A DNA stretch of 33,035 nucleotides from Candidatus Uhrbacteria bacterium (GCA_018700535.1 JABITQ010000025.1:1-33035), one strand, 5' to 3'; positions 2,256 to 33,035 are shown, numbered from the stretch's first letter. Notes: generated from the letters alone by a model not told the origin. Translations and numbers: made by a program.

Positions 2256-2284
2256 AATGAATTCATTATAACAAAAACGCCGTC

Positions 2285-2689
2285 TTATGCAGACAGCGTT
2301 GCGTGTTGACTCTCAAGTTGCCGTTCGCTACTTGGAGTAAGTCTTACTGAAACCTTGTGAAATACGAGATGCAAACCAATCGCACTCATGGGAAGCAACT
2401 CTTCACTCCATTGCCGTGGAGACATGCGCGCCACAGTCAGATTGATGAAACCTGGATCGTCAGCATATTCAGATCTGACAACAAGTCCCTCAAGGTGTCT
2501 TCTGTGAGCCGTTGTCGCTACAACAGTTGTTTGCGTTCTGAAGTAGGCAGCAGGTAGGTGCGTCTTGATTCTCAGCGTTGACGCGCTCCCAGCAGGCGCG
2601 TAACCCTCGATGCGACTGAGTACACGCTCGATAAACCTTGGATTATCTGATAAATAATGAAGCCTTCGTCTTCCAGGAACAAGCGACAT
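2285..2689 (-). CDS. Hypothetical protein (cassette-type unit; weak PilZ-like beta pattern)
   Basis: GAGGTG RBS before ATG 2689; promoter TTGACT(2739-2734)-N17-TAATGT. Confidence 0.6.
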   Translation of the reverse strand: MSLVPGRRRLHYLSDNPRFIERVLSRIEGYAPAGSASTLRIKTHLPAAYFRTQTTVVATTAHRRHLEGLVVRSEYADDPGFINLTVARMSPRQWSEELLPMSAIGLHLVFHKVSVRLTPSSERQLESQHATLSA

Positions 2690-2776
2690 ACTCACCTCTC
2701 TTGAGCAGCGACATTAAGACGTTTATTCAATATAGTCAACCTAAACAACTTCACGACAAACAAAAAAGGCGTCTCA

Positions 2777-4444
2777 TTAGACGCCTTCCATAATCTTCTT
2801 TAGCGCATTCCATTCTCGCTTTCCTGTTTTCTTCTTTCTTAAAATCTCAGAGAATTTCTTTCCACTAAGCGCGCTTGGCACGATCACATATGTTGCACCA
2901 AGCTTGTAACACTTCTCTGCGTCTTCAAACGTATGCACAGAGACAATAGACACTCCTTTGAACTTTCGACTCTTCAAGAATGTTAACAAAGACATGCTAA
3001 TCACCAAGTCTGGAATTGTTGAGACGATTAGCTTGGCGTGGTCGGCCTTTAGTTCTTCCAAAAAGTTTTCATCTCCAGCGTCGCCATACACAGACGGCTC
3101 CCCTGCTTCAGAAAGTTTGCGGATTACCTGAGGATCAAAATCGATAATCGTGTAAGGCTTTTTGAGTGTGCGTATTGTCTTGAGCAACTGCTTACCTGTG
3201 TAGTGATATCCGAACAAAAGGACAGAGCTCGCTTTGTGTGATCTAAGTCGCTCTATCGCCAACATATTGTCAGGCTCGAGCCACTTGAACATCCATTTAA
3301 TCTTTTCGTAAATGACTTCGTTGTGCTCGATCAAAAACGAACTGCCAGCAATCGTCACCAACCCTACCGCCGTTGTAAGCGCAAGTGCAGGCTCGCCAAG
3401 ATGTCCTGCTGCGATCCCTGCTGCGATAACGATAAATGAGAACTCAGAAATCTGCGCGACTGTGGTACCAGAGAGAAACCCTGTGCGCGGATGATAACCA
3501 AGCCCACGCATGATCAACATGACGATGAGCGGGTTTCCAATTAGGACGAATGCGCTAAAGAGTGCGGTTGGGATAATCGTTGCGGCAAAGCTTTCAAAGC
3601 TTAGTTGTGTACCCAGAACGATAAAGAAGATGATAAGGAAGAAATCTCGCAACGGTCTGATACGTGCGTTGATCTCGCGGTAGTACATTGAGCTTGAAAG
3701 CGTGACACCCGCAATGAGTGCTCCGAGCTCGATACCGAAACCAAGTGCGACCAACCCACCAGCGATCAAAAAGCACCAAGCGATTGAGAAGATAAGTAGC
3801 AACTCTTGAGACTTTGCCACGTAGCGCAATAGTCGTGGAACGATTTTGGCAGAGATAAACCAAAGCAGTGGGACGAGCACGATTGCCTTTGCCATCGTTC
3901 CTACCAATACTTGATCGAGTGTTGCACCACTTGAAAACCCACCGAGGGCTAGCAAGATTATCATTGCGATAAAATCTTGAACCAACAGGAACCCGACACT
4001 GATACGACCGTACAACGAGTCAAGATCCTCTTTGTCCATCAACAACTTGATGATGATAATGGTAGAGGAGAATGCGAACGCGATTGAGAGGTAAATCGCG
4101 GTGACAGGCTCAAAACCTAATAGCGTTGCGATGATGAACCCAGCAATAGATGTAAACAGCACTTGCCCCAACCCTGTCGCCGCTGCAATCCCACCAACAT
4201 CTTTTACATTGCGCCAGTTGAGCCCAAGCCCGACAGTAAACAACAAAAACGCAACACCGATTTCGCTCATGACATCAAACACTTCTGAGCCATGTGTGAG
4301 CGCGAGCACAGAAGGCCCGGCGATCATTCCTGTGATTATGTAAGCCAAAATAAGCGGTTGCTTAAATCGATACATCAGCATCGAAATCGCAGCCGCGATG
4401 ATAAGAACAATTCCAATTTGAAAAAAAAGTTCCTCCAATAACAT
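2777..4444 (-). CDS. Cation:proton antiporter (CPA2/Kef type) with C-terminal TrkA-N/RCK domain
   Basis: About 13 TM segments; SEIGVAFLLFTVGL, FSSTIII, LLVQD, QISEFSF, YGDA motifs. Start moved to ATG 4444, downstream of TGnTATACT. Confidence 0.92.
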   Translation of the reverse strand: MLLEELFFQIGIVLIIAAAISMLMYRFKQPLILAYIITGMIAGPSVLALTHGSEVFDVMSEIGVAFLLFTVGLGLNWRNVKDVGGIAAATGLGQVLFTSIAGFIIATLLGFEPVTAIYLSIAFAFSSTIIIIKLLMDKEDLDSLYGRISVGFLLVQDFIAMIILLALGGFSSGATLDQVLVGTMAKAIVLVPLLWFISAKIVPRLLRYVAKSQELLLIFSIAWCFLIAGGLVALGFGIELGALIAGVTLSSSMYYREINARIRPLRDFFLIIFFIVLGTQLSFESFAATIIPTALFSAFVLIGNPLIVMLIMRGLGYHPRTGFLSGTTVAQISEFSFIVIAAGIAAGHLGEPALALTTAVGLVTIAGSSFLIEHNEVIYEKIKWMFKWLEPDNMLAIERLRSHKASSVLLFGYHYTGKQLLKTIRTLKKPYTIIDFDPQVIRKLSEAGEPSVYGDAGDENFLEELKADHAKLIVSTIPDLVISMSLLTFLKSRKFKGVSIVSVHTFEDAEKCYKLGATYVIVPSALSGKKFSEILRKKKTGKREWNALKKIMEGV

Positions 4445-4522
4445 AAGTGAAAACAGTATACCATTTGACACACATCTAAACATATAGTCGAATGGGGATA
4501 GTCTCAGCCAAAAAGGAGACTT

Positions 4523-5074
4523 ATGAGCAGATCGATTTTTCCACGGGAACGCCGATGGAGCACATGGCTCCGCTCACACATGCATCCCTCTGCATTGGTA
4601 AAGGCTGCAAACAAGCTCGAGGAGCTGGCTTACAGACTTGGTTTGACCTCATTTGTTCCAGCGACAGTCGACGTGCTGGTAACCGTCGAAACCAAAGAAA
4701 AGCTCGAAATTCTGATGGGGCTCTCAAGCGATGGAGAGAACAAGGGTCGATGGACACCTTTTGGTGAACGCATGTTCCGTGGTGACGAAGAACCACAAAC
4801 TCGTGCGATCATCATCATGTCTCGACTTGGACTTCAACTGCCTGAAACGCGCTTCGACCCCATTGGTGTCGTCAGTGCTCAGTGGCCACATGCCCACTAC
4901 CTGACCATCATGATTGAGCTGCGTATTACACCAGAAGAAGCAGCTCGCATCATCGCCACCAAGGAATACACCGAGCTTCAGCAATTCACTCTTAGCGACG
5001 CACTCATACGTGTCGACATGCCTGAAGCTTACAAACAGTGCGTGCGCAAATTGCGCGACCACACACTGCAATAG
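4523..5074 (+). CDS. Nudix-fold protein with degenerate Nudix box
   Basis: TVDVLV...EILMG...GRWTPFGE...GDE...RLGL follows the Nudix layout but lacks REUXEE; AGGAG RBS. Confidence 0.6.
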   Translation: MSRSIFPRERRWSTWLRSHMHPSALVKAANKLEELAYRLGLTSFVPATVDVLVTVETKEKLEILMGLSSDGENKGRWTPFGERMFRGDEEPQTRAIIIMSRLGLQLPETRFDPIGVVSAQWPHAHYLTIMIELRITPEEAARIIATKEYTELQQFTLSDALIRVDMPEAYKQCVRKLRDHTLQ

Positions 5075-5168
5075 CATCATGGGGACCTAAAAACGCGGGT
5101 CCTCATTTTATTATTGACAAAACCTATTAATTGCCATAAATTCACTTCCTGGTTCAAAAGGAGCAGAG

Positions 5169-6110
5169 ATGAATTCCGTATTCACAAAGATTGTTCAAAG
5201 CTGGAATATGAAAGGTTCTGAGCGTCATGTGCGCTTTTTACTTCTACTGACTAGCATAGGACTGATCGTTGCAGATGTGGGGTTCGACCACCCATTGAGC
5301 GACACTACAAAATTTCTGTCGAGGCTTTGCCTTCTCCTCGGTTTCAAGCTGATCGTTGAGCAATTCTATGTCTTGCACGTCACGATTCAAGAGACTGACT
5401 CGTTTCGAGATGCGCTCGCAATACTTTGGGAGTCTTCGTGGGTCGCTCAAGAATCATACAGCGAGCTTGTGAACGTTCTTGCTGATGAAAAGCAGAGCAT
5501 TCAGACACTCGAACGAAAGGCCGAGCTCGAACGCATTGAAGCGCAGCAATTGCTGAAGCAGAAGATGGAGCGACTCAAGCATCGTGCGAGAAAGATCCTA
5601 CCTGATGTGAGCGAGAGTAAGATCACAATGGTTGCTGAGCAAGCAGTTGCGATGTCGCAAGAGCAAGCAAATGCACACTTTCGCAAATACAAGCAGCTCT
5701 CAGAGCTGGCCAAAAGCGCATCACTTTTCAGTGGTGAGGAACGCAAAATTTTCTCTGACCATCTGAGGCAAAGCCGGTTCGATGATGCTGTTCAAATGCT
5801 TCAAGATCGTTCGGAGCGAATCAATCTGATTGAGGAAGCGAAGCGTCTAGGTGTTGAATCATCCATTGACTGGAACACTCCCCTGACAGAACTCGCGCAG
5901 ATCCGTGCAACGATCAACGTTGCGCAGACGCGCGCAAGGCACCAAGCAAGACTCGACGTGCTGCGCGAACGTGTACTGAGTGACACAGGAAATGATCGGG
6001 GTGCTCATCTGGCAAATATTCAGCTTGCACAAGACGCCATTGGCAACGACCGCGATTTTCGTAAGGCAATACACCCAGTCGAGAGAACCTATGGAAATCA
6101 CACTCGCTAG
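5169..6110 (+). CDS. Hypothetical membrane-anchored coiled-coil protein
   Basis: Two N-terminal hydrophobic segments, then helical/coiled-coil; TTGACA-N17-TAAATT promoter, AGGAG RBS, terminator about 6116-6150. Confidence 0.75.
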   Translation: MNSVFTKIVQSWNMKGSERHVRFLLLLTSIGLIVADVGFDHPLSDTTKFLSRLCLLLGFKLIVEQFYVLHVTIQETDSFRDALAILWESSWVAQESYSELVNVLADEKQSIQTLERKAELERIEAQQLLKQKMERLKHRARKILPDVSESKITMVAEQAVAMSQEQANAHFRKYKQLSELAKSASLFSGEERKIFSDHLRQSRFDDAVQMLQDRSERINLIEEAKRLGVESSIDWNTPLTELAQIRATINVAQTRARHQARLDVLRERVLSDTGNDRGAHLANIQLAQDAIGNDRDFRKAIHPVERTYGNHTR

Positions 6111-6220
6111 ACACACCCCTTTATCGTACGGATAGAGGGGTTTTATTGTTATGGATCAATTGACAACCCATTTTTGATCACATACGATCGAAGAGTCTTT
6201 AACCTAGAGCATGGAGACCT

Positions 6221-6670
6221 GTGCACCTTTTGCTCATCCTTCTGATCACAGCCCAAACGGCATTCGCAAACCCCACTGGCGACGCAGCTGTCACAATCGA
6301 ACAAACAGCCGACATTGAGCGCTGTGAGTTCATCGCGCAAATTGTGAAGCTCCAAATCAAACGCACTTCACTAGAGAGCAACCTACTCGCCGTTTGGGAA
6401 ACAAAACCAGAAGACGCCGAACAAGCGGCCATCCGCATGAGCATCATGGAAGAGCTCCGCGGCCGAATCGCAACTTTGGACAAGCAGATTTCGGTCATCA
6501 AGAGCGAGCTCAATTTGGTCGAGCTCAACCTGAAGACAACCATGAAGATCGAGCACCTTCGACCACTCGACAAGTTGGAGTGTGTCTATCGTGCCCACAA
6601 GCGCGAGGAAGAAGCGCGGAGCAAAGAAAAGGAAAAGGCAAAAAGTATGGCACCGACGCCAAAGCCTTAG
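6221..6670 (+). CDS. Hypothetical secreted coiled-coil protein
   Basis: GTG start after GGAG; signal peptide MHLLLILLITAQTAFA; TTGACA-N17-TACGAT promoter; terminator about 6680-6712. Confidence 0.75.
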   Translation: MHLLLILLITAQTAFANPTGDAAVTIEQTADIERCEFIAQIVKLQIKRTSLESNLLAVWETKPEDAEQAAIRMSIMEELRGRIATLDKQISVIKSELNLVELNLKTTMKIEHLRPLDKLECVYRAHKREEEARSKEKEKAKSMAPTPKP

Positions 6671-6800
6671 TACTGACGCGACACTCATTTCCAACTGGAG
6701 ATGAGTGTCTTTCATTTGGAGATCTATCTTGACAAAATGGATAAAAAACACTATGTTTCTGCCTTGCGCATTTATGCGTTAGAAGAAATAGGAGTGCAAA

Positions 6801-7373
6801 GTGCACACGATCTTTTACTGGCTCTCAGTCATTTTGATGGCTTTGGGTTTTGCCCCTTACATAAAAGCGATCGTCAAAGACGGTGCGCAACCAAAACGAA
6901 CCTCATGGTTTATCTGGTTGCTACTCGACTTGATTACCTATTCTGGGATGGTGGCGGCAGACTCGGTAAACGGACACATTCGTGTGGCCGTTCTCGGAGC
7001 CCTCGCGATCTCGATACTTTCAATCAAGTTCGGCAAGAATGGATGGACCAAGATCGACACATTGTCAGTGATTGGTGCAGCTCTCGCGATCGGACTCTGG
7101 AAGATGTTCGACAGCCCAACCGTTGGACTTGTCACATCACTGATCGCAACCATCATCGCCGCAATCCCAACATTCGAAAGCGGCTGGAAAACACCAGAGA
7201 AAGAAGACAAGCTTGGCTGGACCTTGTTCTGGCTCTCATGCATCGCAGCGACCATCGCAGCAGAGTCATGGGCACCAGAAGACTCCGCCCAACCCCTCAC
7301 ATTCCTATTCATCGAAAGTGTTATGATGTGGTTGCTATTTGTGCGACCACGGAAAAACACATCACCGCAGTAG
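6801..7373 (+). CDS. Multi-pass membrane protein, PQ-loop-like
   Basis: Six to seven TM helices with internal repeat (PYIKAI..P..SW / PTFESGW.P..E..W); promoter TTGACA-N17-TATGTT; AGGAG RBS. Confidence 0.75.
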   Translation: MHTIFYWLSVILMALGFAPYIKAIVKDGAQPKRTSWFIWLLLDLITYSGMVAADSVNGHIRVAVLGALAISILSIKFGKNGWTKIDTLSVIGAALAIGLWKMFDSPTVGLVTSLIATIIAAIPTFESGWKTPEKEDKLGWTLFWLSCIAATIAAESWAPEDSAQPLTFLFIESVMMWLLFVRPRKNTSPQ

Positions 7374-7393
7374 CCTGAACCGCTGGAGAAACA

Positions 7394-7696
7394 ATGTCTC
7401 TTCTGAACATCTTTGACTCTATACCTTCGTACCTCTGGGTCGAACTCGGTGTCACGGTTGCAGCCGTTCTGTTGATCATGAAGTTCAAACACTTCGACAC
7501 AGCTGGCCTTGCCATGATGATAACTACTGGCTCATTCATTGCCATAGCAATCGTTGGTGGTCATATGTTCACCTCGTTCGCTGATCACTTGCTCGGTGTC
7601 TATCACGGCGACACTCACCAGCTGAAGATCATGGTCCACAACGCACTCTATATGGCTTGGGGCGGAGCGCTCATGCACTTCAAGCACATATTCTGA
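7394..7696 (+). CDS. Small 3-TM hypothetical membrane protein
   Basis: GGAG RBS, hydrophobic segments, terminator about 7708-7746. Confidence 0.7.
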   Translation: MSLLNIFDSIPSYLWVELGVTVAAVLLIMKFKHFDTAGLAMMITTGSFIAIAIVGGHMFTSFADHLLGVYHGDTHQLKIMVHNALYMAWGGALMHFKHIF

Positions 7697-7788
7697 CCCG
7701 CTCCCCCTCGCCCGCAACCGTACTTGGTAGCGGGCTTTTTTGTTTTCCACAGTTCCCTCTCTTCTTATTCGTCTATAATAAGATTCAT

Positions 7789-8865
7789 ATGGCACACTCG
7801 CACGAACACTCAAGCCACAAGAACATTGCGTCCGCACTGGCGCTTAACCTCTTTTTTGTTGTCCTCGAAATCATCGGTGGACTGCTGACGAACTCTTTCG
7901 CCATCTTGAGTGATGCGCTCCATGACTTTGGTGACACGATGAGCTTGGGGGTTGCTTGGTATCTTGAGCGGGTTTCTAAAAGGGGTAAGACGAGTACGTT
8001 CTCGTTTGGTTACCGTCGCTTCTCTCTTCTGTCTGCACTAATCAACAACCTAGTTCTTTTAATCGGTTCGACGTTTATCTTGTGGCAGGTTATCCCAAAG
8101 CTTTCTGATCCACACCACAGCAACGGTGCGGGAATGCTTGTGCTGGCTGTGTTTGGAATTGCGATCAACGGTTTTGCTGCGTTTAAGTTGCGTAAAGGAA
8201 AATCGATGAACGAGAAGAGTGTGTCGTTGCACATGCTTGAAGATTTGTATGGATGGGTCGTTGTCCTGGCGGCTGGTCTGTTGATTATGATCAAGGACAT
8301 TCACGTTATCGACCCTCTGCTCTCGATTGGAATCACTCTCTATATTCTCTTGAACGTTCTTAAGTCTTTGCGCGACACAATCAAAATCTTCCTCCAGGGC
8401 GTGCCGACGGATTTGAAGATTGGTGAGATTGCTAAAGACATCTTGGGAGTAAAAGGTGTGGAGGGTTTGTACGACATGAACCTCTGGTCTCTCGACGGTG
8501 AGCACAATGTGTTTAGTGCGCATGTGGGTGTGGAGTCTGGTGTAAAGGGCGAGAAGTTGTTTTCTGTAAAAAACGAGGTGAAGCACAAAGTGTTTGAGCA
8601 TGAAATCGACCACTTAACGATCGAGCTTGAACGCAGCAACGAACGCACTAAGCAAGAACGCATCGATGGACTTAAGGACATCAAGCGCATGCAGCGCGAA
8701 GAAATTACTGCAAAAGACCCGCGAACATTCATGCCAAAATCAAAAAAGGCCCGAGCGGCCTTAGTCCTTATAATCCTTTCCCTCTTTGTAACAGCGTTTG
8801 TAATCACTCCTGAATCTAATGACGCCGAGCAAGCCACACACGAGCATGAGGAGGGGTTGCGTTAA
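7789..8865 (+). CDS. czcD: Cation diffusion facilitator (CzcD/ZitB-like Zn/Co/Cd efflux)
   Basis: SDALHD, FSFGYRRFSLLSAL, LHMLEDL, DPLLS, HLTIE motifs; His-rich N-terminus. Start ATG 7789 just after TATAAT. Confidence 0.88.
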   Translation: MAHSHEHSSHKNIASALALNLFFVVLEIIGGLLTNSFAILSDALHDFGDTMSLGVAWYLERVSKRGKTSTFSFGYRRFSLLSALINNLVLLIGSTFILWQVIPKLSDPHHSNGAGMLVLAVFGIAINGFAAFKLRKGKSMNEKSVSLHMLEDLYGWVVVLAAGLLIMIKDIHVIDPLLSIGITLYILLNVLKSLRDTIKIFLQGVPTDLKIGEIAKDILGVKGVEGLYDMNLWSLDGEHNVFSAHVGVESGVKGEKLFSVKNEVKHKVFEHEIDHLTIELERSNERTKQERIDGLKDIKRMQREEITAKDPRTFMPKSKKARAALVLIILSLFVTAFVITPESNDAEQATHEHEEGLR

Positions 8866-8969
8866 CGAATTGACATCGTTACGTGCCGCTGATATTTTTA
8901 CATCTCACTGAGCTACTTATACTTAGTGACCCAACGCAACTGGGAATGTTGCACTGGTTAGGAGACAAC

Positions 8970-9242: not shown

Positions 9243-9404
9243 ACAGCACTGACTCCATGCAACGAAACATTCTTAAATGGGTTCGTGGCGTGGGGTCTTT
9301 TTGTTTTTTTGATAAATAGAAATGTGATTGTTTCCATTGACTAAATCCTAAAAACCTTATAGTTTTTGGATTGCTCAATGAACATCTCTGGTTTGGAGAC
9401 TACA

Positions 9405-9833: not shown

Positions 9834-10012
9834 CCCACGATACGTTGACCCGAGTGAATACTTGGGTCTTTTTTGTTTATATATAGAAGAAAGCACTCAC
9901 ACTCATACATTGACAATAACCAACAATTGGCGTATTCTCCGCGGTCACCACGACTACCCCATTCAGCGGGTGCCCATTTTGGGAAAGCTGATTCTTGCAC
10001 ATGGAGCATTTG

Positions 10013-10553: not shown

Positions 10554-10577
10554 CCAGCTTGCGTATGGGATTGTTGT

Positions 10578-26244: not shown

Positions 26245-26488
26245 CGTAGGAGGATTCATAGCAGTTGGTACGACACCAGCTGCTATTTTGTTTGCAGAGT
26301 TTTATTGAAGGTTACAACAACCACCCCAAACCCCTCCTTCCCCATACGTAAAAGGAGGGGCCTCGGAGTCGGAATAGCTGTTCCGGCATAGTGGTTCCAT
26401 TGACAAAAACGTCAAAAATACATATGGTCCCGGGTCTTCTAGTGGGATTTATCCATGTTGAAGATACAATCATTTCAAGAGGTGAACG

Positions 26489-27595
26489 ATGAGTGAAGTA
26501 TACACAGCACTCGCAACTACCACTGTGCTCATTGGGGATTCACCCAGTGGCAACCCCGACTTTTTCGGACAAGTGGTGGAGATCGACAGCATGTCGGCGT
26601 TGGTAAGCTGCATCATCTCCGATGGTGAATACCAGCTTGTATCTGTGCCAAGAGCAACAATGAGCATCAGGGTGATGGGTAGTGGAGGAAGTAGGCACAC
26701 ACTCTTTCACCACCTCACCAACAAAGGCTCTCATCTCAATACCCTGAAAGATCCGACCGTGATCACAAAGCTGGCCAAGAAGACTGGTCTGTTGGATGAT
26801 CGTGAGATGATGGAAGCAGTGTTGATCGCCGACGTATTGGACGTGGTTACACTTGCTCTGCTGAATGCCATCACAGATCCAGACCTGCGCTTTTGGGTAC
26901 TGACAGACCCAAGTGTAGATGACTTGGCTGCAGACATGAGAGGCATCGCGAGTAAACAAGAGGTTTGTGACGCAGCCATCAAACTCTACGAACAACTCGA
27001 TGGTGAACTCATAGGTAGGCCCCCCATCTACAAAACACTTCTCGCGTGCCTGCGCACAGTAGTGGAAGATCAAGATGAGATGGTGAGGTTTATCGAAACC
27101 GTCGTAGACTTTCAAGATTCGGAAATCATTCACAATGCCGTTGTGCGTGGCATGGATGAGAATCTTGCCTTGAGGTGCTACACATGTCTTCAGGCCAGTG
27201 GCAGCTCTCTGCAAACACGTCTGCTCATTCTGGAACACCATCTACCAACCATGGAAATTACAAGCCATGAAGCACTTGCTGTATTCCTTACCGATGACGC
27301 ACCAATCGAGGTGATCATCGCAGCTGCTGAGAAGATGAATCACCAAGTATCCTATTTGATCGTGTTGGATAAACAATCTACTTCTATCATGAGGATGGCA
27401 GCTCTATGGAGACTCAGCAAGTTTGAAAATCACCCAGAATTCCTCGTTGCCGCACACAAAAAGATGAGCCCTGAACTTCTCCAGGAAGCATTCGCAACTG
27501 TGGAAACACATGCCAATAGCGGTGTGTTTGCTGATGTAATAGCAACACTCAAGATCATGTCTGAAGCCCAGGCTTCAGACCCACCCTCCGCATAA
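26489..27595 (+). CDS. Hypothetical protein, tandem paralog 2
   Basis: See paralog 1; TTGACA(26400)-N17-TATGGT promoter. Confidence 0.85.
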   Translation: MSEVYTALATTTVLIGDSPSGNPDFFGQVVEIDSMSALVSCIISDGEYQLVSVPRATMSIRVMGSGGSRHTLFHHLTNKGSHLNTLKDPTVITKLAKKTGLLDDREMMEAVLIADVLDVVTLALLNAITDPDLRFWVLTDPSVDDLAADMRGIASKQEVCDAAIKLYEQLDGELIGRPPIYKTLLACLRTVVEDQDEMVRFIETVVDFQDSEIIHNAVVRGMDENLALRCYTCLQASGSSLQTRLLILEHHLPTMEITSHEALAVFLTDDAPIEVIIAAAEKMNHQVSYLIVLDKQSTSIMRMAALWRLSKFENHPEFLVAAHKKMSPELLQEAFATVETHANSGVFADVIATLKIMSEAQASDPPSA

Positions 27596-27665
27596 CGCAG
27601 GAGGTCCATAGCAGTTGGTACGACACCAACTGCTATTTTGTTTGTGGAGTTTTGAACAAATTTGA

Positions 27666-27829
27666 AACAACCACCCCTAACCCCTCCTTCCCCACACTTA
27701 AAAGGAGGGGGATATGAGCAGACGTTTCGAATCTCTGTTCCGGTCCCCCGCCTTGTAATAACTAGGAAGGAGGGGTTAGCCGTTCGAGGCTCTGAGGAGC
27801 CCTCAGGCTCTCGAAGAGGGGTGGTTGTT
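27666..27829. repeat. REP/MITE-like inverted-repeat element with nested palindrome
   Basis: AACAACCACCCCTAACCCCTCCTTCC ... GGAAGGAGGGGTTAG[insert]AGGGGTGGTTGTT; left arm also present at 26316-26360. Confidence 0.7.
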
Positions 27830-27849
27830 ATCGAAGTCAGAAATATTCT

Positions 27850-27878
27850 CAAACAAAATACGCACAACCCCGGTAAGG
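27850..27878 (-). repeat. 29-bp exact direct repeat, copy 1 (terminator)
   Basis: CAAACAAAATACGCACAACCCCGGTAAGG. Confidence 0.92.
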
Positions 27879-27918
27879 CTGTGCGTTGCGTATTCTTTGT
27901 CCGTCTATGACGACGGTG

Positions 27919-28428
27919 TCACTCCATCACATTGTCGAAGTACCTGCGTGCGAGATGCCACGGCAGGATGAGGGTCCTTGATGTGTACTTGTCAAAGACG
28001 AACGTCAGCATACACTCACGCTCATCCCCTTCAGCGCCACTTTCGAGATTGTCTCCCACGCGGAACTGCTGCGGAAGATTCGGATCATGGGTTGCCACAT
28101 GAAACATTGCTTCTGCAACATCGGTACCAAGACGCGTAAAACTGTGGGGTGAATTGTCATACCCCATAAATGATTCCAGGCTCACCGGCTGTGCAGTCAG
28201 CAAACGCTTGATGTCTACACAATCATCGAGCTCATGCCTTTCCTCTGCATCGCCTGAGACATGCAACCTGATGCTACATGCACCACCACCGTCTTCTCCA
28301 GCAAAGAATTCAACTTGAAACCTAATCCCTTCTCTACGTTCGAATTTGTTCACGAAGACAGGCTTGAGTCTCTTCATTCTGTCATCTCTGGGATCGAACT
28401 GAAAAACCTCTTGACTGGCACTGCCCAT
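27919..28428 (-). CDS. Hypothetical protein flanked by direct repeats
   Basis: AGGAG RBS; TTGACC upstream; lies between two copies of the 29-bp repeat. Confidence 0.75.
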   Translation of the reverse strand: MGSASQEVFQFDPRDDRMKRLKPVFVNKFERREGIRFQVEFFAGEDGGGACSIRLHVSGDAEERHELDDCVDIKRLLTAQPVSLESFMGYDNSPHSFTRLGTDVAEAMFHVATHDPNLPQQFRVGDNLESGAEGDERECMLTFVFDKYTSRTLILPWHLARRYFDNVME

Positions 28429-28545: not shown

Positions 28546-29196
28546 CTACTTGCGCCACTGTCGGTCGCCGGCGTCGCCGAGACCTGGGACGATGAAGGCG
28601 TTTTCGTTGAGTTCGGGATCGATTGCTGTGACGTGGATCTTCACATCTCGGTGCTCTTTGTTCAAACGTGCAGCACCTGCATTTGCAGCGATGATTGCGA
28701 CATAGATGATCCTTTTGGCACCATGCTTTTTCAGGTGCGCCACTGCAGCGCAAGCTGAGCCTCCAGTCGCCAGCATCGGATCAAGTACGTAGCAGGTTGT
28801 TCCGCGTGAGATAACCTTGGGAACTTTGCTGCCTCTGAAGTTTGGTCGGTGTGTTTCTTCGTCACGATCCATGTCCATGTGCCAGACCAGCGCACCTGGG
28901 ATCATTTCTTGAAACGCACCAAGCATCCCCTGGCCAGCACGCATGATTGGAACGAAGGCGTGTGTAGACTCGAGAATGAAGGGAACCTGCGCACGCACCC
29001 CAAGAGGGGTCGTCACTTCCCCATTCTCGAGATGAAGACCCTCGAGCGCTTGGATTGCCATCATCATACTGAGGTGGTGCAGATACTGACGAAAAAGAAC
29101 GTTCGGAGTGTTCTCGTCGCGAAGCTTGCCCAGGAGCACTCGAGCAATCGGGTGCATGTTTATCGCAGCTTCAACAGACGGACGCATCGGACACAT
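28546..29196 (-). CDS. upp: Uracil phosphoribosyltransferase
   Basis: LRD, TPLG, PIMRAG, RDEET, LDPMLATGGS, IVPGLGDAGDR motifs; GGAG RBS before ATG 29196. Confidence 0.95.
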   Translation of the reverse strand: MCPMRPSVEAAINMHPIARVLLGKLRDENTPNVLFRQYLHHLSMMMAIQALEGLHLENGEVTTPLGVRAQVPFILESTHAFVPIMRAGQGMLGAFQEMIPGALVWHMDMDRDEETHRPNFRGSKVPKVISRGTTCYVLDPMLATGGSACAAVAHLKKHGAKRIIYVAIIAANAGAARLNKEHRDVKIHVTAIDPELNENAFIVPGLGDAGDRQWRK

Positions 29197-29294
29197 GAAT
29201 CTCTCCGTAATTTGGATTCGGGTGCATAATAGTCGATGTTCTAGATTCTGGCAAAACAAAAAACCCTCGATGATGTCGAGGGTTTTATTTTCTA

Positions 29295-30575
29295 TTATTC
29301 CCAACCTTCTCCTTGTCGCACCAGCAAATCATCAGCACGCAATGGCTCTGCCATTAAGTCCTTCACCACACGCTCCATGCGAGCACTTTGTGAACCCTTC
29401 ACCAACACAACATCGCCTTTATTAATCTCTCGATCAAGCCAACGCCCAGCCTCTACGGAATTTGTAAAATGATGCGTTTCTGTTTCAGGAATCCCCGCCT
29501 CAATCGCAGCACGACGCAAATCTTGCGCCATCTCCCCCACGGTCACAAGCACATCCACACCAACCTCTGCGGCATACATCCCGATCATACGATGCTCGTC
29601 CTCGGTGTACTGCCCAAGCTCAGCCATGTACCCAAGCGCAGCAATGCGTCGTGAGCTTTCTGCTGGAGAAAATTCTGCGAGCACATCGAGTGCTGCTTTC
29701 ATTGATGCTGGAGCTGCATTGTAACTTGAGTCGATAATGAGTGATCCTTTGATTCCAGCAAGTGGGTTCATGCGCCCAGGCTCGAACGTGATATCTGGAA
29801 TACCAGCCAAGATCTGCTCATTGCTCAACCCAAGGTGACGCGCAACGACGACTGCCGGAAGCACAGATGATGCACCGGAGCGCCCAAGAACATTTTCTAG
29901 TTGGATAACGAGAGGGTCGTGACTCTCTGCTTCTGTCGTGACAGACAGTGTTGAGAATACTTCCCCAGGCTCAAATGAGAAATCTTCTCTCGTATCTAAT
30001 GTGTAAGCAGTTGCCTGCAAATCAGCATTGGTTTGAAATCCATACGTGACGACAGGTGCAGATGCATGCTCTGTTAACCCCATCACCAACGAATCGTCGG
30101 CATTCATAACGCACAACCCTTCGCTGTCAGTCGCAGAGAGGATCTCTGCCTTTTCCTCCGCGAGTTGCTCAACAGATCGAAAGTACTCAGCGTGCACAGG
30201 AGAGATTCGTGTCAGCACACTCACTGAAGGTTTTGCCACATCTGTGAGATAGCTCATGTCGCCAGGGTGATCAACAGCGTATTCAAGAACAAATACCTCT
30301 GGCACGTTTATTGGTTTCATCAAGAGAATTCTGAGCCAACCAAGCACGGACTTACCAGGAGATGGTGCACCTAAAATAGTAAGCGGGACACCAAACTCGT
30401 TGTTGTAGTTTTTGTAGGTAGATCGCACGGTGTACTTTTCAGCCAAAACAGTAGCGATTGCATTGCGGGCGGAAGTCTTTCCGACAGACCCTGTCACAGC
30501 AACGATAATCGGTTTGTGCTCGGCAATAAGCTTTTGCGCTTTCTTTTTAATCTGTTTTTTGATGAAGTCTTTCAT
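29295..30575 (-). CDS. murF: UDP-N-acetylmuramoyl-tripeptide--D-Ala-D-Ala ligase
   Basis: VTGSVGKTS, NNEFGVPLT, GRM, IDSSYNA, M.ELG...H, LVKGSQ.ARME motifs. Confidence 0.93.
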   Translation of the reverse strand: MKDFIKKQIKKKAQKLIAEHKPIIVAVTGSVGKTSARNAIATVLAEKYTVRSTYKNYNNEFGVPLTILGAPSPGKSVLGWLRILLMKPINVPEVFVLEYAVDHPGDMSYLTDVAKPSVSVLTRISPVHAEYFRSVEQLAEEKAEILSATDSEGLCVMNADDSLVMGLTEHASAPVVTYGFQTNADLQATAYTLDTREDFSFEPGEVFSTLSVTTEAESHDPLVIQLENVLGRSGASSVLPAVVVARHLGLSNEQILAGIPDITFEPGRMNPLAGIKGSLIIDSSYNAAPASMKAALDVLAEFSPAESSRRIAALGYMAELGQYTEDEHRMIGMYAAEVGVDVLVTVGEMAQDLRRAAIEAGIPETETHHFTNSVEAGRWLDREINKGDVVLVKGSQSARMERVVKDLMAEPLRADDLLVRQGEGWE

Positions 30576-30582
30576 ATCATTG

Positions 30583-32352
30583 TTATTCAACACTCCTCAC
30601 AGGAGGGATCTCAAAATACTGTAGCAGAAACTCGGCGATCTCCCCAAAGAGTGGAGCGGCCGTAGACTCAGCCCAGAAGACGTCCTTTGGATTGTCGATC
30701 CGGACTACCATTGCAAAACGTGGATCTTCAACCGGACCAAAACCTGCGAATGACCCAATAGTTGAATCCTGACTATATCCTCCACTGCTACTAGCAACCT
30801 GCGCGGTTCCGGTTTTACCGGCAATATAATATCCAGGCACACCAGCCTGTGTTCCGTGACCATGCTCAATAACTGAGACGAGCATTGCAGCAATCGTACG
30901 TGCAGTCGACGGCTGGATTACCTGTGCAAGATCTTGTGAACTATGCACTTCCACTGATCCATCGTCATAACGAATCTCATCGATGATCTGCGGTTTTTTC
31001 AAAACACCTCCATTTGCAAGCGCTGCATAAGCCATTGCCATCTGAAGCGGCGTCACCGTAATCCCCTGTCCGTAAGATGCCGTCGCGGCGTAAATCTCTG
31101 CACCGATATCAAGCGAGGCGATTGTCCCGGCAGATTCTGTATCAAGCTCAATCCCCGTCTGCACACCAAACCCAAATGCTTTTACGTAATCTACAAACGC
31201 ATCCATTCCCATCTGCCGCATCGAGAAGATCATCCCTGTATTAATCGAGTCTTCCAGAACTTTTGTCATATCAACCATGCCGTACACTTTGCTCTCGGCA
31301 TTCCGAATAGGTTTTGGCCAACCCTCAACCATTGAATACCCTTTGTCCTCAAACAAAGTCTGTGGGCTCACTGCATCGGCATCAATTGCTGCCGCCATAG
31401 TGATTGGCTTAAAAATTGACCCAGGCTCATACGCATAAAAAATCGCTGGGTTATTAAACGCACGAATGCTTTCTACCTCGTTATATGCATTTGGATCATA
31501 ATCAGGCGCCCCACACATCGCGAGCACACGCCCTGTTGCCGGCTCAATAATCACCACAGACCCTCCGTCGGCATCATGTCGCTTAACAGCCTCCTGCAAT
31601 GATGAGCAGGCCATGTATTGAATCGTGCGGTCTAGTGACAAGACAATGTCAGCACCATCGACAGCAGGCTCGAGCGATTGATCTGCCACCGCAATAAGTC
31701 TCCCTGAAATATCGCGTTCAGATAATAAAGACCCCTCCTTACCAGAAAGCAGCTCATCAAAGTGACCTTCGATTCCATACTTACCAGATTCTGATCCATC
31801 TTCGTTTGTCCCCAAAAATCCAAGCACGTGCCCACTCATCTCTGCCTCTGGATACAAACGTGTTGGTTCGCGCACAAACGCAACCCCATCAAAATCAAAC
31901 GCGAGGATTTCGTCTAGCATCTCATCCCCCACCTCTCGCATGATCGGCTCGTAAGGGTCTTCCGGCTGATCTATCCGTTCTTCAAACGCATCAATTTTTT
32001 CCTCATCCCAACCAAAGACTCCACCAAGCGCTTCAGCAACTTCATCTGGCTCCTCGATTAATCTTGGATCGGCATACACAAATGCCAGGCGATGATTTGT
32101 CGCCACCGCAACCAAGGTCTCGTCTTTTTCGTCGTGCACAAAGACGGTTCCTCTGTCAGGAACAAGTTGTTGCAATAACTCGTGCTGACCGCTTGCAAGC
32201 GCATTGTAAAAGCCATGGTTGATTACCTGCAACCAAAACAATTTAATGACAATGACGGACGCAAAAAGAATCGCTCCCCATCGCAGCGCTTCAAGACGCA
32301 CATCACGATCAGAGCCTCTCGTTGTTTTCCATTTTTTCTTTGTCTGTCTCAT
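30583..32352 (-). CDS. ftsI: Class B penicillin-binding protein (FtsI/PBP2-type transpeptidase)
   Basis: N-terminal TM; RG.V, R.YP, G.YGIE, EPGSIFK (SxxK), SIN (SxN), KTGTAQ motifs. Confidence 0.9.
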   Translation of the reverse strand: MRQTKKKWKTTRGSDRDVRLEALRWGAILFASVIVIKLFWLQVINHGFYNALASGQHELLQQLVPDRGTVFVHDEKDETLVAVATNHRLAFVYADPRLIEEPDEVAEALGGVFGWDEEKIDAFEERIDQPEDPYEPIMREVGDEMLDEILAFDFDGVAFVREPTRLYPEAEMSGHVLGFLGTNEDGSESGKYGIEGHFDELLSGKEGSLLSERDISGRLIAVADQSLEPAVDGADIVLSLDRTIQYMACSSLQEAVKRHDADGGSVVIIEPATGRVLAMCGAPDYDPNAYNEVESIRAFNNPAIFYAYEPGSIFKPITMAAAIDADAVSPQTLFEDKGYSMVEGWPKPIRNAESKVYGMVDMTKVLEDSINTGMIFSMRQMGMDAFVDYVKAFGFGVQTGIELDTESAGTIASLDIGAEIYAATASYGQGITVTPLQMAMAYAALANGGVLKKPQIIDEIRYDDGSVEVHSSQDLAQVIQPSTARTIAAMLVSVIEHGHGTQAGVPGYYIAGKTGTAQVASSSGGYSQDSTIGSFAGFGPVEDPRFAMVVRIDNPKDVFWAESTAAPLFGEIAEFLLQYFEIPPVRSVE

Positions 32353-32397
32353 GGGTTTAAAACAAAAATAGAGCGGGGATAATCCCGCTCTATTTTA

Positions 32398-32844
32398 CTA
32401 CAGCTCAGAGAAATCGTCTTCACCCACAACACGTCCTAAGTACGCACTGTTTTCTCCGGTGTTTTCATTGTTGATAATTCGGATCAATTCACCGTTCTGT
32501 GCCTCGTAGTCGGTAAACGTATATTTGTCCTTCACCTCGGTGACAGATTCACCAACCACCTCGGTTACCATCCCCGCATCCGCGTAGGTAAACTCGTACT
32601 CTTTGTTTTGATAAAGCACTGCCTCATCTTCTGCCTCGATCAACTCTTGGATCTTTTCAAACAACACAAGTTCGTCTTCGTCTGCAACAACTGAGATCAT
32701 GCGTTCTTCACCATCATCATACAACCAACGCATCTCTTGTCCTCCCTTAAGGGTGATGATCGCGTGACCGATATGAGTGAACGGCTCGTTAAAAACACTT
32801 GCCGACTGCCCTGGCTCTTTCGCTAAAAATTGTTCAATCGTCAT
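32398..32844 (-). CDS. Acidic protein, DUF4178-like
   Basis: GGAGG RBS; W..D.G...ISV, Y...Y....AG, F.DYE..NG, Y.G pattern. Confidence 0.6.
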   Translation of the reverse strand: MTIEQFLAKEPGQSASVFNEPFTHIGHAIITLKGGQEMRWLYDDGEERMISVVADEDELVLFEKIQELIEAEDEAVLYQNKEYEFTYADAGMVTEVVGESVTEVKDKYTFTDYEAQNGELIRIINNENTGENSAYLGRVVGEDDFSEL

Positions 32845-32936
32845 AGCTCCTCCATTTAGACTTAACGCAAGCGATTATACACAAGGTTTGAACACTTGAA
32901 AAGGGTTTATTTTATGCCTAAACACAGCCCAAAGCA

Positions 32937-33035
32937 TTGACACAAGCCCATTTTAATGGTAGTCTCCCTGGTCCTTAAACTGGACCATGCTACCTCAAAC
33001 CAGAACAACCAACCGGAGAGAACATGCCGAGAGCA
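32937..33035 (+). promoter_or_regulatory. Cassette-type promoter and RBS, with start of a further gene at the window edge
   Basis: TTGACA-N17-TAGTCT with TG extension; GGAG then ATG at about 33024. Confidence 0.65.

What the first reader, a model, noticed from the sequence alone, without database searches (positions are those of the whole stretch)
2271..33035. Dense field of autonomous single-gene expression cassettes among ordinary chromosomal genes
Seen: more than 20 short, mostly unrecognisable ORFs each have their own TTGAC(A/T/C)-N17-TAnnnT promoter (e.g. 5114, 6160, 6729, 8870, 9910, 10925-, 13957-, 14315, 16127, 18046-, 21113-, 21134, 23356-, 25035, 26400, 32937). Most also have a GGAG/GAGG RBS and their own terminator, and they lie in mixed orientation between core genes. 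Known: this promoter-RBS-ORF-terminator layout resembles the early/host-takeover modules of SPO1-like phages, not a streamlined chromosome. Inference: a cassette acquisition and shuffling system, possibly a store of host-interaction genes in an episymbiont. No integrase or phage structural gene is visible.
Basis: partly seen in the sequence, partly recalled or inferred. Interest (0 to 1): 0.85.

Follow-up and report, generated by a model that had tools for sequence, protein, structure and literature searches.

The report
Variable island of self-contained gene cassettes
A 24-kb stretch of a tiny uncultured bacterium's chromosome is packed with species-specific genes that each carry their own promoter, ribosome-binding site and terminator, unlike the organism's conserved genes, so it looks like a fast-turnover accessory island and not a dedicated gene-capture machine.

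Summary
The window holds 15 exact TTGACA-N17-TAnnnT sites against 0.31 expected. Of 31 genes called between 4.5 and 28.5 kb, 20 have such a promoter, 26 a GGAG/GAGG Shine-Dalgarno (SD) site and 20 a terminator.

The organism is a ~1 Mb Parcubacteria ('Uhrbacteria'-like) genome. The stretch is its longest run of genes without an ortholog in the same-genus genome (26 genes). It has the highest promoter density of any contig over 8 kb. It lies between anchors that sit about 4.5 kb apart in one relative.

The layout is genome-wide and order-wide. Conserved genes have no SD above background and carry U at -1 of the start codon. Species-specific genes are SD-led, GC3-rich and mostly monocistronic.

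Five tested ORFans or ORFan families have no credible homolog, or only patchy ones. I found no integrase, shared boundary site, phage structural gene, defence gene, enrichment of secretion signals, or deletion or excision joint. The best reading is a hypervariable island of moron-like autonomous cassettes. A dedicated capture and shuffling system is not supported.

The parts
540..4444 (-). Left conserved anchor: PP2C phosphatase (540-2183) and Na+/H+ exchanger with TrkA-N (2777-4444). No SD and no TTGACN promoter.
   Evidence: Pfam. Exchanger is 78% identical to G001_C19, which has PP2C next to it. The same pair occurs in L095, L096 and L099.
2276..2739 (-). Single cassette between the two anchor genes: promoter TTGACT-N17-TAATGT (2739), GAGG SD, ORF 2689-2285 (134 aa, no family), terminator 2300-2276.
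4523..28428 (.). The accessory island: 31 called genes, mean GC3 0.537. 20 have a promoter, 26 an SD, 20 a terminator. Orientation 17 plus, 14 minus.
4523..5106 (+). ORF 4523-5074 (183 aa) with AAGGAG SD and terminator 5079-5106. No TTGACN promoter.
5114..6141 (+). Cassette: TTGACA-N17-TAAATT, SD, ORF 5169-6110 (313 aa, 2 TM), terminator 6115-6141.
   Evidence: Only a marginal partial hit in 161 other genomes of the order.
6160..6709 (+). Cassette: TTGACA-N17-TACGAT, GGAG, ORF 6221-6670 (149 aa, signal-like N-terminus), terminator 6680-6709.
6729..8865 (+). Promoter TTGACA-N17-TATGTT followed by three ORFs: 6801-7373 (4 TM), 7394-7696 (2 TM), and a CDF cation-efflux gene 7789-8865. Possibly a small operon.
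8870..9242 (+). Cassette: TTGACA-N17-TATTTT, AGGAG, ORF 8970-9242 (90 aa).
9337..9868 (+). Cassette: TTGACT-N17-TAGTTT, GGAG, ORF 9405-9833 (142 aa, lipobox-like), terminator 9847-9868.
9910..10458 (+). Cassette: TTGACA-N17-TATTCT, GGAG, ORF 10013-10402 (129 aa, signal-like), terminator 10432-10458.
10494..10925 (-). Cassette: TTGACA-N17-TATCTT, AGGAG, ORF 10850-10578 (90 aa). It ends in the long-hairpin dispersed repeat famA (10556-10494).
11760..12313 (-). Cassette: TTGACA-N17-TACCTT, ORF 12233-11967 (88 aa), terminator 11786-11760.
12406..12702 (-). 98-aa 3-TM protein with GGAG SD. It is the only island ORF with a phage-family hit (phrog_2169, category 'moron, auxiliary metabolic gene and host takeover', E 2.7e-14).
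12899..13410 (-). Cassette: TTGACA-N18-TAGATT, GAGG, ORF 13323-12958 (121 aa), terminator 12917-12899.
13477..13957 (-). Cassette: TTGACT-N17-TACGAT, GAGG, ORF 13902-13477 (141 aa, 3 TM).
14033..14162 (-). tRNA-Glu(CUC) with its own TTGCCA-N17-TATTAT promoter. It is the only part of the island with DNA matches in relatives.
14315..14922 (+). Cassette: TTGACC-N17-TAAGGT, AAGGAG, ORF 14371-14922 (183 aa, lipobox-like).
14963..15637 (-). Cassette: TTGACC-N17-TAGTTT, AGGAG, ORF 15520-14996 (174 aa), terminator 14988-14963.
16127..16561 (+). Cassette: TTGACA-N17-TATATT (11/12 match), GGAG, ORF 16183-16554 (stand-alone response-regulator receiver), terminator 16539-16561.
16637..17602 (-). 321-aa ORFan with GAGG SD. 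It belongs to a 3-copy family with 24122-24928 and C87:16669-17829.
   Evidence: The profile search found only the 3 members among 1.84 billion representatives.
18061..20457 (-). Promoter TTGACA-N17-TAAATT, ORF 20371-18107 (754 aa, signal peptide, PMP-repeat beta-helix), terminator near 18083-18061. No SD, GC3 0.37.
20559..21113 (-). Cassette: TTGACA-N17-TATTTT, GGAGG, ORF 21062-20559 (167 aa). Its promoter is back-to-back with the next one.
21134..21928 (+). Cassette: TTGACC-N17-TAGTTT, GGAGG, ORF 21219-21893 (ORFan N-domain fused to an RNA-polymerase alpha C-terminal domain), terminator 21903-21928.
22642..23356 (-). Cassette: TTGACT-N17-TATTTT, AGGAGG, ORF 23288-22680 (202 aa), terminator 22666-22642.
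23380..23882 (-). Two genes conserved in G001 inside the island: DUF1905 (41% identity) and a 63-aa protein (84% identity). No SD, GC3 0.38-0.41.
24055..25024 (-). Cassette: TTGACA-N17-TAGTTT, GGAG, ORF 24928-24122 (268 aa, paralog of 16637-17602), terminator 24081-24055.
25035..26286 (+). Cassette: TTGACA-N17-TACAGT, GAGG, ORF 25126-26244 (372 aa), terminator 26258-26286. First of a tandem pair.
26400..27636 (+). Cassette: TTGACA-N17-TATGGT, GAGG, ORF 26489-27595 (368 aa), terminator 27608-27636. Second of the pair: 40% aa identity, flanks 78-90% identical.
27860..28428 (-). ORF 28428-27919 (169 aa) with AGGAG SD and terminator 27886-27860. That terminator is 97% identical to the one at 28532-28506.
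28546..32352 (-). Right anchor: UPRTase (28546-29196), Mur-ligase-family gene (29295-30590), PBP2-type transpeptidase (30583-32352).
   Evidence: Pfam. Same order and strand, at 49-60% identity, about 4.5 kb from the exchanger in L097.
32937..32965 (+). TTGACA-N17-TAGTCT promoter whose gene runs off the window.

Best explanation
Window 4.5-28.5 kb is a hypervariable accessory island in the chromosome of a ~1 Mb Parcubacteria ('Candidatus Uhrbacteria'-like) bacterium. It lies between a conserved Na+/H+ exchanger and a upp / Mur-ligase / PBP2 block.

The island is built of about 30 lineage-specific genes, mostly ORFans. Most are self-sufficient, insulated transcription units with four parts: a sigma-70 promoter with a perfect -35 box, a 20-90 nt leader, a GGAG Shine-Dalgarno site 5-7 nt before the start, and an intrinsic terminator.

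The same 'moron-like' layout marks species-specific genes throughout this genome and in two other genomes of the order. These cassettes are GC3-rich. The conserved genes differ: they sit in operons, have no SD and carry U at -1 of the start codon.

Inferred, not shown: the cassettes are gained, lost and replaced at a limited set of intergenic slots by ordinary recombination, not by a dedicated integrase. They persist because each brings the signals it needs to be expressed wherever it lands. Their source is an unsampled gene pool, possibly viruses or other mobile DNA of these bacteria.
For: Signals are real:
- 15 exact promoter sites against 0.31 expected.
- Genome-wide, 234 of 264 TTGACN-N16-18-TANNNT sites are intergenic.
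- GGAG-to-start spacing in accessory genes peaks at 5-7 nt (147 of 170 occurrences) and is flat in core genes.

The island is accessory:
- From 4.5 to 23 kb, 23 of the 26 called genes have no hit in same-genus G001 and 3 have only weak ones.
- It is the longest run of genes without an ortholog in the genome (26 genes; the next is 17). It has the highest promoter density (0.67 per kb) among 45 contigs over 8 kb.
- The island is richer than other accessory genes: promoter 20 of 31 against 88 of 278 (p 5e-4), SD 26 of 31 against 154 of 278 (p 0.002).

Anchors: in L097 the order PBP2, Mur ligase, UPRTase, 4.5 kb, exchanger lies on one strand, and none of the window's island proteins matches that 4.5 kb.

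Genome-wide contrast, accessory against core: SD 190 of 331 against 72 of 533; promoter 113 of 331 against 44 of 533; terminator 203 of 331 against 194 of 533.
- Core SD frequency (9-11%) is not above the 12.9% found before internal start codons. Accessory SD is 51% even where no choice of start was involved.
- U(-1) is 74% in core genes against 13% before internal ATG.
- GC3 is 0.447 in core, 0.536 in accessory SD+ genes, 0.452 in the most conserved core genes, and intergenic GC is 0.443.
- The contrast replicates in G001 and in the first 400 kb of G024, a genome from another family.

Slot turnover: among 422 syntenic adjacent core pairs between G000 and G001, 299 are empty in both, 25 are filled in G000 only, 31 in G001 only, and 67 in both.

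ORFan status:
- 26489-27595 matches only itself in 5.8 billion proteins and in 161 other genomes of the order.
- The 3-member family profile finds only its own members in 1.84 billion representatives.
- 5169-6110, 16637-17602 and 22680-23288 have only marginal partial hits in the order.
- The N-domain of 21219-21893 is patchy: two other genera (E 1.6e-20 and 1.9e-10), absent from the same genus. The G005 copy has its own TTGACA promoter, SD and terminator, and the G007 copy an SD and a terminator.

The moron definition (own promoter and terminator, GC unlike the neighbours, extra DNA relative to relatives) is taken from passages of PMC3594210.
Against: - No mobile-element, phage structural or defence gene is in the island. 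PHROGs hit 1 of 30 ORFs, PADLOC 0 of 20, and Pfam found no integrase. Acquisition is therefore inferred only from composition, signals and distribution.
- No donor or homolog was found anywhere. This fits very fast divergence or de novo origin equally well.
- The promoter contrast is much weaker under a generic sigma-70 score for genes with more than 100 nt of upstream gap: 37% core against 44% accessory at 9/12 or better. Part of the difference is therefore operon structure and -35 quality.
- Only 13 of the 31 island genes show all three signals. Eleven lack a TTGACN promoter.
- Contigs of 4 runs from one study show no joint across 4001-24000, so there is no sign of ongoing gain or loss in that population.
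- Anchor synteny on the right side was seen in 1 of 5 relatives' loci examined.
- Gene calls, start sites and terminators come from my own heuristic scripts. 'Core' is defined by one comparator genome.
Confidence: 0.7

Rival explanations
1. A dedicated cassette-capture and shuffling system (integron-like). A site-specific recombinase inserts, excises and reorders single-gene cassettes at recombination sites on the cassette boundaries.
For: The layout is a dense array of single-gene units not shared with relatives. Tandem duplicate cassettes have flanks (78-90% identity) more conserved than the coding part (40% aa). Short hairpin repeats lie at some cassette ends (10494-10556; 26311-26367 and 27652-27713). 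In G005 a homologous cassette sits in a tandem array with a repeated terminator-promoter junction.
Against: - No recombinase gene is in the window.
- The genome has one tyrosine-recombinase match, at a contig end on C54. It is 76% identical to G001, so it is conserved and Xer-like. There is one serine recombinase on C84, and no DDE_Tnp_1.
- The hairpin repeats occur at only a few boundaries, and also between core genes elsewhere. No sequence is shared by the boundaries in general.
- Cassettes carry their own promoters and lie in both orientations (17 plus, 14 minus), unlike integron arrays.
- No joint was found in 4 runs.
Confidence: 0.05
2. A decayed prophage or other integrated mobile element. 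The small genes would be its early, host-takeover or moron genes, with the structural and integration genes lost.
For: - The promoter, strong SD, small ORFan and terminator layout resembles phage early and moron genes (PMC3594210 passages).
- One ORF (12406-12702) matches a PHROG in the category 'moron, auxiliary metabolic gene and host takeover'.
- A tRNA gene lies inside the island.
- GC3 differs from the core genes.
- An extra RNA-polymerase alpha-CTD protein (21219-21893) could act on host transcription.
- The ESM Atlas nearest feature hit for 26489-27595 is a viral cluster, but at score 0.81, which is chance level.
Against: - 29 of 30 ORFs have no PHROG hit. There is no integrase, terminase, capsid, tail or replication gene.
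- No partial tRNA copy or direct repeat bounds the region.
- The same layout is spread over the whole genome in single slots between core genes, and it occurs in three genomes of the order. One element cannot explain that.
Confidence: 0.1
3. Native, very fast-evolving or de novo genes and not acquired DNA. Young or rapidly diverging monocistronic genes need strong stand-alone signals, and the composition shift reflects their own selective regime.
For: - No homolog was found anywhere for the tested ORFans.
- SD, U(-1) and promoter frequency change gradually with ortholog identity. SD runs 16%, 17%, 40%, 41%, 60% from 70% identity or more down to no hit.
- Most 1:1 filled slots between G000 and G001 are diverged positional orthologs of 27-49% identity.
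- In the duplicate pair the coding sequence has diverged far more than the flanks.
Against: - GC3 of SD-led accessory genes (0.536) is above core genes (0.447), the most conserved core genes (0.452) and intergenic DNA (0.443). Origin from local sequence does not explain it.
- 25 and 31 slots are filled in one species only.
- 5 of 7 no-hit 1:1 slot pairs show no similarity at all (z below 2).
- One cassette family is patchy across genera and absent from the same genus.
Confidence: 0.2

Closest known systems
Phage morons (independent promoter-gene-terminator units; Cumby, Davidson and Maxwell 2012, PMC3594210, passages read)
   Same: Each has its own promoter and terminator. GC content differs from the neighbours. 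They are present as extra DNA relative to relatives and are mostly small genes of unknown function. One island ORF hits a PHROG of the moron / host-takeover category.
   Different: Here the units sit in a bacterial chromosome with no phage backbone. They make up roughly a third of the gene set (334 of 1065 called genes have no hit in the same-genus genome). They also differ from the host's core genes in how translation starts.
Hypervariable genomic islands of streamlined free-living bacteria (Prochlorococcus islands, SAR11 hypervariable regions; recalled, not checked in a paper here)
   Same: The region lies between conserved flanks and its content is unrelated between close relatives. It is rich in ORFans and includes a tRNA gene. 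The genome is small and was found in marine metagenomes.
   Different: Strain-level variation was not seen in the 4 runs laid. The nearly uniform cassette layout and the SD / U(-1) split are not part of the usual description.
Integron gene-cassette arrays
   Same: An array of single-gene units, many ORFans, that varies between relatives.
   Different: There is no intI, no attC-like sites and no common Pc promoter. Cassettes have their own promoters and lie in both orientations.
SPO1 host-takeover module
   Same: Many small genes with near-consensus sigma-70 promoters and strong SD sites.
   Different: There is no phage context, and PHROGs hit 1 of 30 ORFs. Each gene here is insulated by a terminator, and the genes lie in mixed orientation.
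SD-independent translation in SD-poor lineages
   Same: Core genes lack SD although the 16S rRNA keeps CCUCC. Some Parcubacteria are reported to lack the anti-SD motif altogether (PMC9297842 passages). U at -1 can pair with A37 of the initiator tRNA (PMC10018350 passages). The initiator tRNA here has A37. The Bacteroidia case is recalled only.
   Different: A sharp split within one genome was not mentioned in the passages I read: conserved genes are SD-less with U(-1), and species-specific genes are SD-led and GC3-rich.

Membership tests
Integron | intI-type tyrosine recombinase next to the array | tested here: not met
   PF00589 in the whole genome gave one match, at C54:2-250, not in the window. 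It is 76% identical to G001, so it is a conserved housekeeping type. The genome is 98.6% complete in 96 contigs, so a gene at a contig break could be missed.
Integron | attC-like recombination site at the 3' end of each cassette | tested here: not met
   blastn of the window against itself and the genome finds repeats at only a few boundaries (10494-10556, 26311-26367, 27652-27713, 27850-27885 / 28496-28531). The other terminators are unrelated in sequence. No structure-based attC model was run.
Integron | Promoterless cassettes in one orientation, read from a common promoter | tested here: not met
   20 of 31 genes have their own TTGACN-N17 promoter. Orientation is 17 plus and 14 minus.
Phage moron | Own promoter and own terminator | tested here: met
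   Promoter in 20 of 31, terminator in 20 of 31, and promoter, SD and terminator together in 13 of 31. These are sequence predictions only.
Phage moron | Base composition unlike the neighbours | tested here: met
   Island mean GC3 is 0.537 and accessory SD+ genes 0.536, against 0.447 for core genes.
Phage moron | Extra DNA relative to related genomes | tested here: met
   No orthologs in G001. The anchors are about 4.5 kb apart in L097 against about 24 kb here. 25 slots are filled in G000 only.
Phage moron | Located in a phage or prophage genome | tested here: not met
   PHROGs hit 1 of 30 ORFs. No structural, replication or integration gene was found.
Prophage / integrative element | Integrase, att repeats and element backbone genes | tested here: not met
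Hypervariable genomic island | Conserved flanks with unrelated content between relatives | tested here: met
   The left flank is conserved in G001, L095, L096 and L099. The right flank plus the exchanger on one strand was seen in L097 only. Content is unrelated in all of them.
Hypervariable genomic island | Presence/absence variation within a population | tested here: inconclusive
   No joint was found in contigs of 4 runs from one study at about 5x depth, with pieces up to 3 kb. Power is low.
Defence island | Known defence-system proteins | tested here: not met
   PADLOC hit 0 of 20 island ORFs.
SPO1-type host-takeover module | Phage genome context and early genes acting on host functions | not testable with these tools
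   Only the layout resemblance can be seen. No phage context was found, and the functions are unknown.

The most novel reading that the evidence does not exclude
An order of Parcubacteria runs two gene-expression dialects in one chromosome. Conserved genes are translated without a Shine-Dalgarno site, using U(-1)AUG and A-rich leaders. A large, fast-turnover pool of GC3-rich ORFan cassettes carries perfect -35 promoters, GGAG at 5-7 nt and terminators. The cassettes would come from a separate gene pool that has not been sampled, such as viruses or plasmids of these bacteria. The split would let the cell or the invader control the whole accessory set at once, for example through access to the anti-SD end of 16S rRNA. 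The window is the largest depot of such cassettes in this genome.
Probability: 0.3. Interest if true: 0.8.

Novelty: new variant of a known kind. Interest (0 to 1): 0.55.

Why it matters
CPR bacteria are full of 'hypothetical' genes whose reality and origin are disputed. Here the ORFans are marked as real, separately expressed genes by a full set of expression signals. As a class they differ from conserved genes in promoter type, translation-start mode, codon composition and operon structure.

This gives three things:
- a sequence-only way to tell accessory from core genes in these genomes;
- a warning for gene finders, which assume one RBS model per genome;
- a testable question about how SD-less and SD-led initiation coexist on one ribosome.

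If the cassettes prove to come from CPR viruses or plasmids, it would also open a view on gene flow in a group for which mobile elements are barely known. The island itself, taken alone, is an ordinary kind of object.

Tried and rejected
- DNA search of 4500-16600 against 30 relatives matched only the tRNA-Glu.
- Rfam at gathering threshold found only the tRNA.
- ESM Atlas for 26489-27595: an N-terminal KOW/SH3-like part plus HEAT-like helices at TM 0.47-0.53, and a viral feature hit at 0.81, which is chance level. These are leads only.
- ESM Atlas for 21219-21893 gave no usable hit.
- AlphaFold2 of 21219-21893 with a 3-sequence alignment gave pLDDT 57. I judged it too poor for a fold search and ran none.
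- I asked whether the four larger ORFans (16637, 24122, 25126, 26489) form one family. They form two families (35% and 40% identity within, 11-12% between).
- A conserved motif downstream of the -10 box (GGTC-like) looked present in the window but is weak genome-wide.
- The idea that tRNA-Glu and the 63-aa gene were split by an insertion, because a similar pair lies close together on C29, was dropped. The order is not collinear, and the two tRNAs are different isoacceptors (CUC and UUC).
- Secretion or surface enrichment was not found.
- Sequencing runs: no RNA holder is listed. The 4 DNA holders come from one study and may include the source sample.
- Laid contigs showed no joints. Loose ends cluster at the tRNA and at the dispersed repeats, as expected for repeats shared with other organisms or loci.
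- Complex prediction, fold search, viral contigs and metagenome-contig scans were not used. The look-up of encoding contigs is marked closed and was not called.
- Literature: three searches. By title and abstract start, none of the listed papers deals with a core/accessory SD split in CPR. I read passages of PMC9297842 only, so this is not proof that it is unpublished. Supplements were not opened.

Full report
**What is there**

The window is contig C27 of a 1.03-Mb, 96-contig genome (47% GC, 98.6% complete). The nearest named relatives of its Na+/H+ exchanger are MAGs titled Parcubacteria or Candidatus Uhrbacteria, at 65-69% identity. The top hit, at 72%, carries a 'Gammaproteobacteria' title that I take to be a mislabel.

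In all, 23 TTGACN-N17/18-TANNNT sites were found. The exact form TTGACA-N17-TANNNT occurs 15 times against 0.31 expected from shuffles. Looser promoter and terminator scans are each about twofold over shuffles.

I wrote a simple gene caller based on codon log-odds plus an RBS and start-codon bonus. It gives 31 genes starting between 4.5 and 28.5 kb:
- 20 have a TTGACN promoter within 200 nt.
- 26 have GGAG or GAGG in place.
- 20 have a hairpin plus T-run terminator.
- 13 have all three.
- 17 are on the plus strand and 14 on the minus strand.

Only 10 of 40 scanned candidate ORFs reach a Pfam cut-off. Those hits are PP2C, a Na+/H+ exchanger, a CDF transporter, a receiver domain, a PMP-repeat protein, an RNA-polymerase alpha-CTD, DUF1905, UPRTase, a Mur ligase and PBP2.

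**Is it unusual for this genome?**

Yes. The genome has 153 exact sites and 225 TTGACN-N17 sites. The window is 3.2% of the bases and holds 15 and 22 of them (binomial p 4e-6).

I fetched the whole same-genus genome G001 and compared it by tblastn. Of 1065 called genes, 731 have a hit. From 4.5 to 23 kb of the window, 23 of the 26 called genes have none and 3 only weak ones (32-41% identity). This is the longest run of genes without an ortholog at 50% identity or more (26 genes; the next is 17). C27 has the highest promoter density of the 45 contigs over 8 kb.

The island is also richer in signals than other accessory genes. Promoter: 20 of 31 against 88 of 278. SD: 26 of 31 against 154 of 278.

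**Context in relatives**

- In G001 the exchanger (78% identity) lies next to a PP2C gene, as it does here. The contig ends just past the exchanger.
- In one Uhrbacteria MAG (L097) the order PBP2, Mur ligase, UPRTase, about 4.5 kb, exchanger lies on one strand. These are the window's two anchors (30583-28546 and 4444-2777), which are about 24 kb apart here. None of the window's island proteins matches the 4.5 kb.
- Four other relatives have different, also unmatched, DNA upstream of the exchanger. Consensus promoters with an SD and a small ORF occur in those stretches too, at lower density.

**A genome-wide and order-wide split**

Genes with an ortholog in G001 at 50% identity or more behave differently from genes with no hit (counts; genes open at a contig end left out).

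| Signal | Core | Accessory |
|---|---|---|
| SD | 72 of 533 | 190 of 331 |
| TTGACN promoter | 44 of 533 | 113 of 331 |
| Terminator | 194 of 533 | 203 of 331 |

Controls:
- Core SD frequency at the longest-ORF start (9%) is not above the 12.9% found before internal in-frame start codons.
- Accessory SD is 51% among genes where my start equals the longest start, so no choice of start was involved.
- GGAG-to-start spacing peaks at 5-7 nt in accessory genes (147 of 170) and is flat in core genes.

Core genes instead carry T at -1 of the start codon in 74%, against 13% before internal ATG codons.

All measures shift stepwise with ortholog identity.

Composition also differs:
- GC3 is 0.447 for core genes.
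- It is 0.452 for the 116 most conserved core genes.
- It is 0.536 for SD-bearing accessory genes and 0.451 for accessory genes without an SD.
- Intergenic GC is 0.443.

The same split appears in G001: SD 13% against 50%, T(-1) 75% against 38%. It also appears in the first 400 kb of G024, a closed genome of another family in the order: SD 14-15% against 44%, T(-1) 69-81% against 41%, GC3 0.42-0.43 against 0.525.

The 16S rRNA keeps the CCUCC anti-SD. The initiator tRNA has A37, which can pair with U(-1) according to passages of PMC10018350. Passages of PMC9297842 report that some Parcubacteria lack the anti-SD motif altogether.

**A result against a strong reading of the promoter contrast**

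Under a generic TTGACA/TATAAT score, and restricted to genes with more than 100 nt of upstream gap, core and accessory genes have promoter-like sites at similar rates. At 9/12 or better the rates are 37% and 44%, against 4-9% in controls. The difference is therefore mainly in -35 quality and in operon structure.

**Turnover**

Between G000 and G001, 422 adjacent core-gene pairs are syntenic:
- 299 have nothing between them in either genome.
- 25 are filled only in G000.
- 31 are filled only in G001.
- 67 are filled in both.

Most 1:1 cases are diverged positional orthologs (27-49% identity). Of the 7 no-hit 1:1 cases, 5 show no similarity (z below 2). Four of those five carry a promoter, SD and terminator together.

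**Origin and function**

- The 368-aa ORF 26489-27595 matches only itself among 5.8 billion proteins and in the 161 other genomes of the order.
- A profile of the 3-copy family (16637-17602, 24122-24928 and a C87 copy) finds only its own members among 1.84 billion representatives.
- Three more ORFans give only marginal partial hits in the order.
- The N-domain of the alpha-CTD fusion 21219-21893 has homologs in two other genera (E 1.6e-20 and 1.9e-10) and none in the same genus. The G005 copy has its own TTGACA promoter, SD and terminator and sits in a tandem array with a repeated terminator-promoter junction. The G007 copy has an SD and a terminator.
- PHROGs hit 1 of 30 ORFs: a small membrane protein in the moron / host-takeover category.
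- PADLOC hit 0 of 20.
- Secretion or membrane signals are not enriched.

**No capture machinery**

- The genome has one tyrosine-recombinase match. It is conserved in G001 at 76% identity and lies on another contig.
- It has one accessory large serine recombinase on C84, and no DDE_Tnp_1 match.
- Repeats at cassette ends are limited to two species-specific dispersed hairpin families and the duplicated cassette pair.
- Contigs from 4 DNA runs of one study cover 4001-24000 at about 5x with few differences and no joints. This is a weak test.

**Verdict**

The best explanation is a hypervariable accessory island made of moron-like autonomous cassettes, in a lineage whose accessory genes as a class use a different expression dialect from its core genes. 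The dedicated acquisition and shuffling system is not supported. Origin by transfer from an unsampled pool is inferred from composition, signals and patchy distribution. Fast divergence or de novo birth remains a live rival.

**Limits**

- Gene, start and terminator calls are heuristic.
- One comparator genome defines 'core'.
- Only 400 kb of G024 was used.
- There are no expression data.

Noticed in passing
genome-wide; in the window e.g. starts at 4444(-), 8865-side gene 7789(+), 20371(-), 23882(-), 32352(-): Conserved genes have T directly before the start codon in 74% (13% before internal ATG) and no Shine-Dalgarno site. The initiator tRNA has A37 and the 16S rRNA keeps CCUCC. The same holds in G001 and G024.
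   Followed up: yes
window 21219-21893 (+); L133:1267-1917 (-); L132:1480-1851 (-): An extra protein has an ORFan N-domain (starting MPLI) fused to an RNA-polymerase alpha C-terminal domain, which is 50% identical to the CTD of the gene C69:362-1585. Homologs exist in two other genera and none in the same genus. One homolog lacks the CTD. The AF2 model was too poor to use.
   Followed up: partly
window 25035-26360 and 26400-27710: In this tandem duplicate cassette pair, the promoter/leader and terminator flanks are 78-90% identical while the proteins are only 40% identical.
   Followed up: partly
window 26311-26367 and 27652-27713; copies on C9 (two), C19, C20, C34, C65, C96: A species-specific dispersed ~50-nt repeat forms a hairpin CCCCTCCTT / AAGGAGGGG, i.e. 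an SD-like sequence paired with an anti-SD-like one. It lies in intergenic DNA, also between core genes, and is absent from G001.
   Followed up: partly
window 10494-10556; copies on C23, C47, C55, C89: A species-specific dispersed ~63-nt long-hairpin repeat acts here as the likely terminator of ORF 10850-10578.
   Followed up: partly
window 18018-18046 (-): A perfect TTGACA-N17-TATTTT promoter has no ORF of 40 aa or more behind it (a 77-aa ORF at 17665-17898 scores poorly). Genome-wide, 33 of 153 exact sites have no called gene within 300 nt. These may drive small RNAs or very small proteins.
   Followed up: no
window 28546-32352 (-): UPRTase, a Mur-ligase-family gene and a PBP2-type transpeptidase have no ortholog in the same-genus genome (30% identity or less). 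They are present in the same order at 49-60% identity in a more distant Uhrbacteria MAG (L097). The genome has other PBP paralogs on C44 and C15.
   Followed up: partly
G001 contig C19 (L027), end at 5542: The same-genus assembly breaks about 190 nt past its exchanger gene, at the point where the window's island begins. This suggests a hard-to-assemble or variable region there too.
   Followed up: no
G000 C84:605-2290 (+): A 561-aa serine-recombinase-domain protein with only 24% identity to anything in G001 lies beside another run of accessory cassettes (4529-9919).
   Followed up: partly
window 14033-14107 (-) and G000 C29:22103-22177: The two tRNA-Glu genes are different isoacceptors (CUC in the window, UUC on C29). 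A paralog of the window's 63-aa gene lies about 200 nt from the C29 copy.
   Followed up: partly
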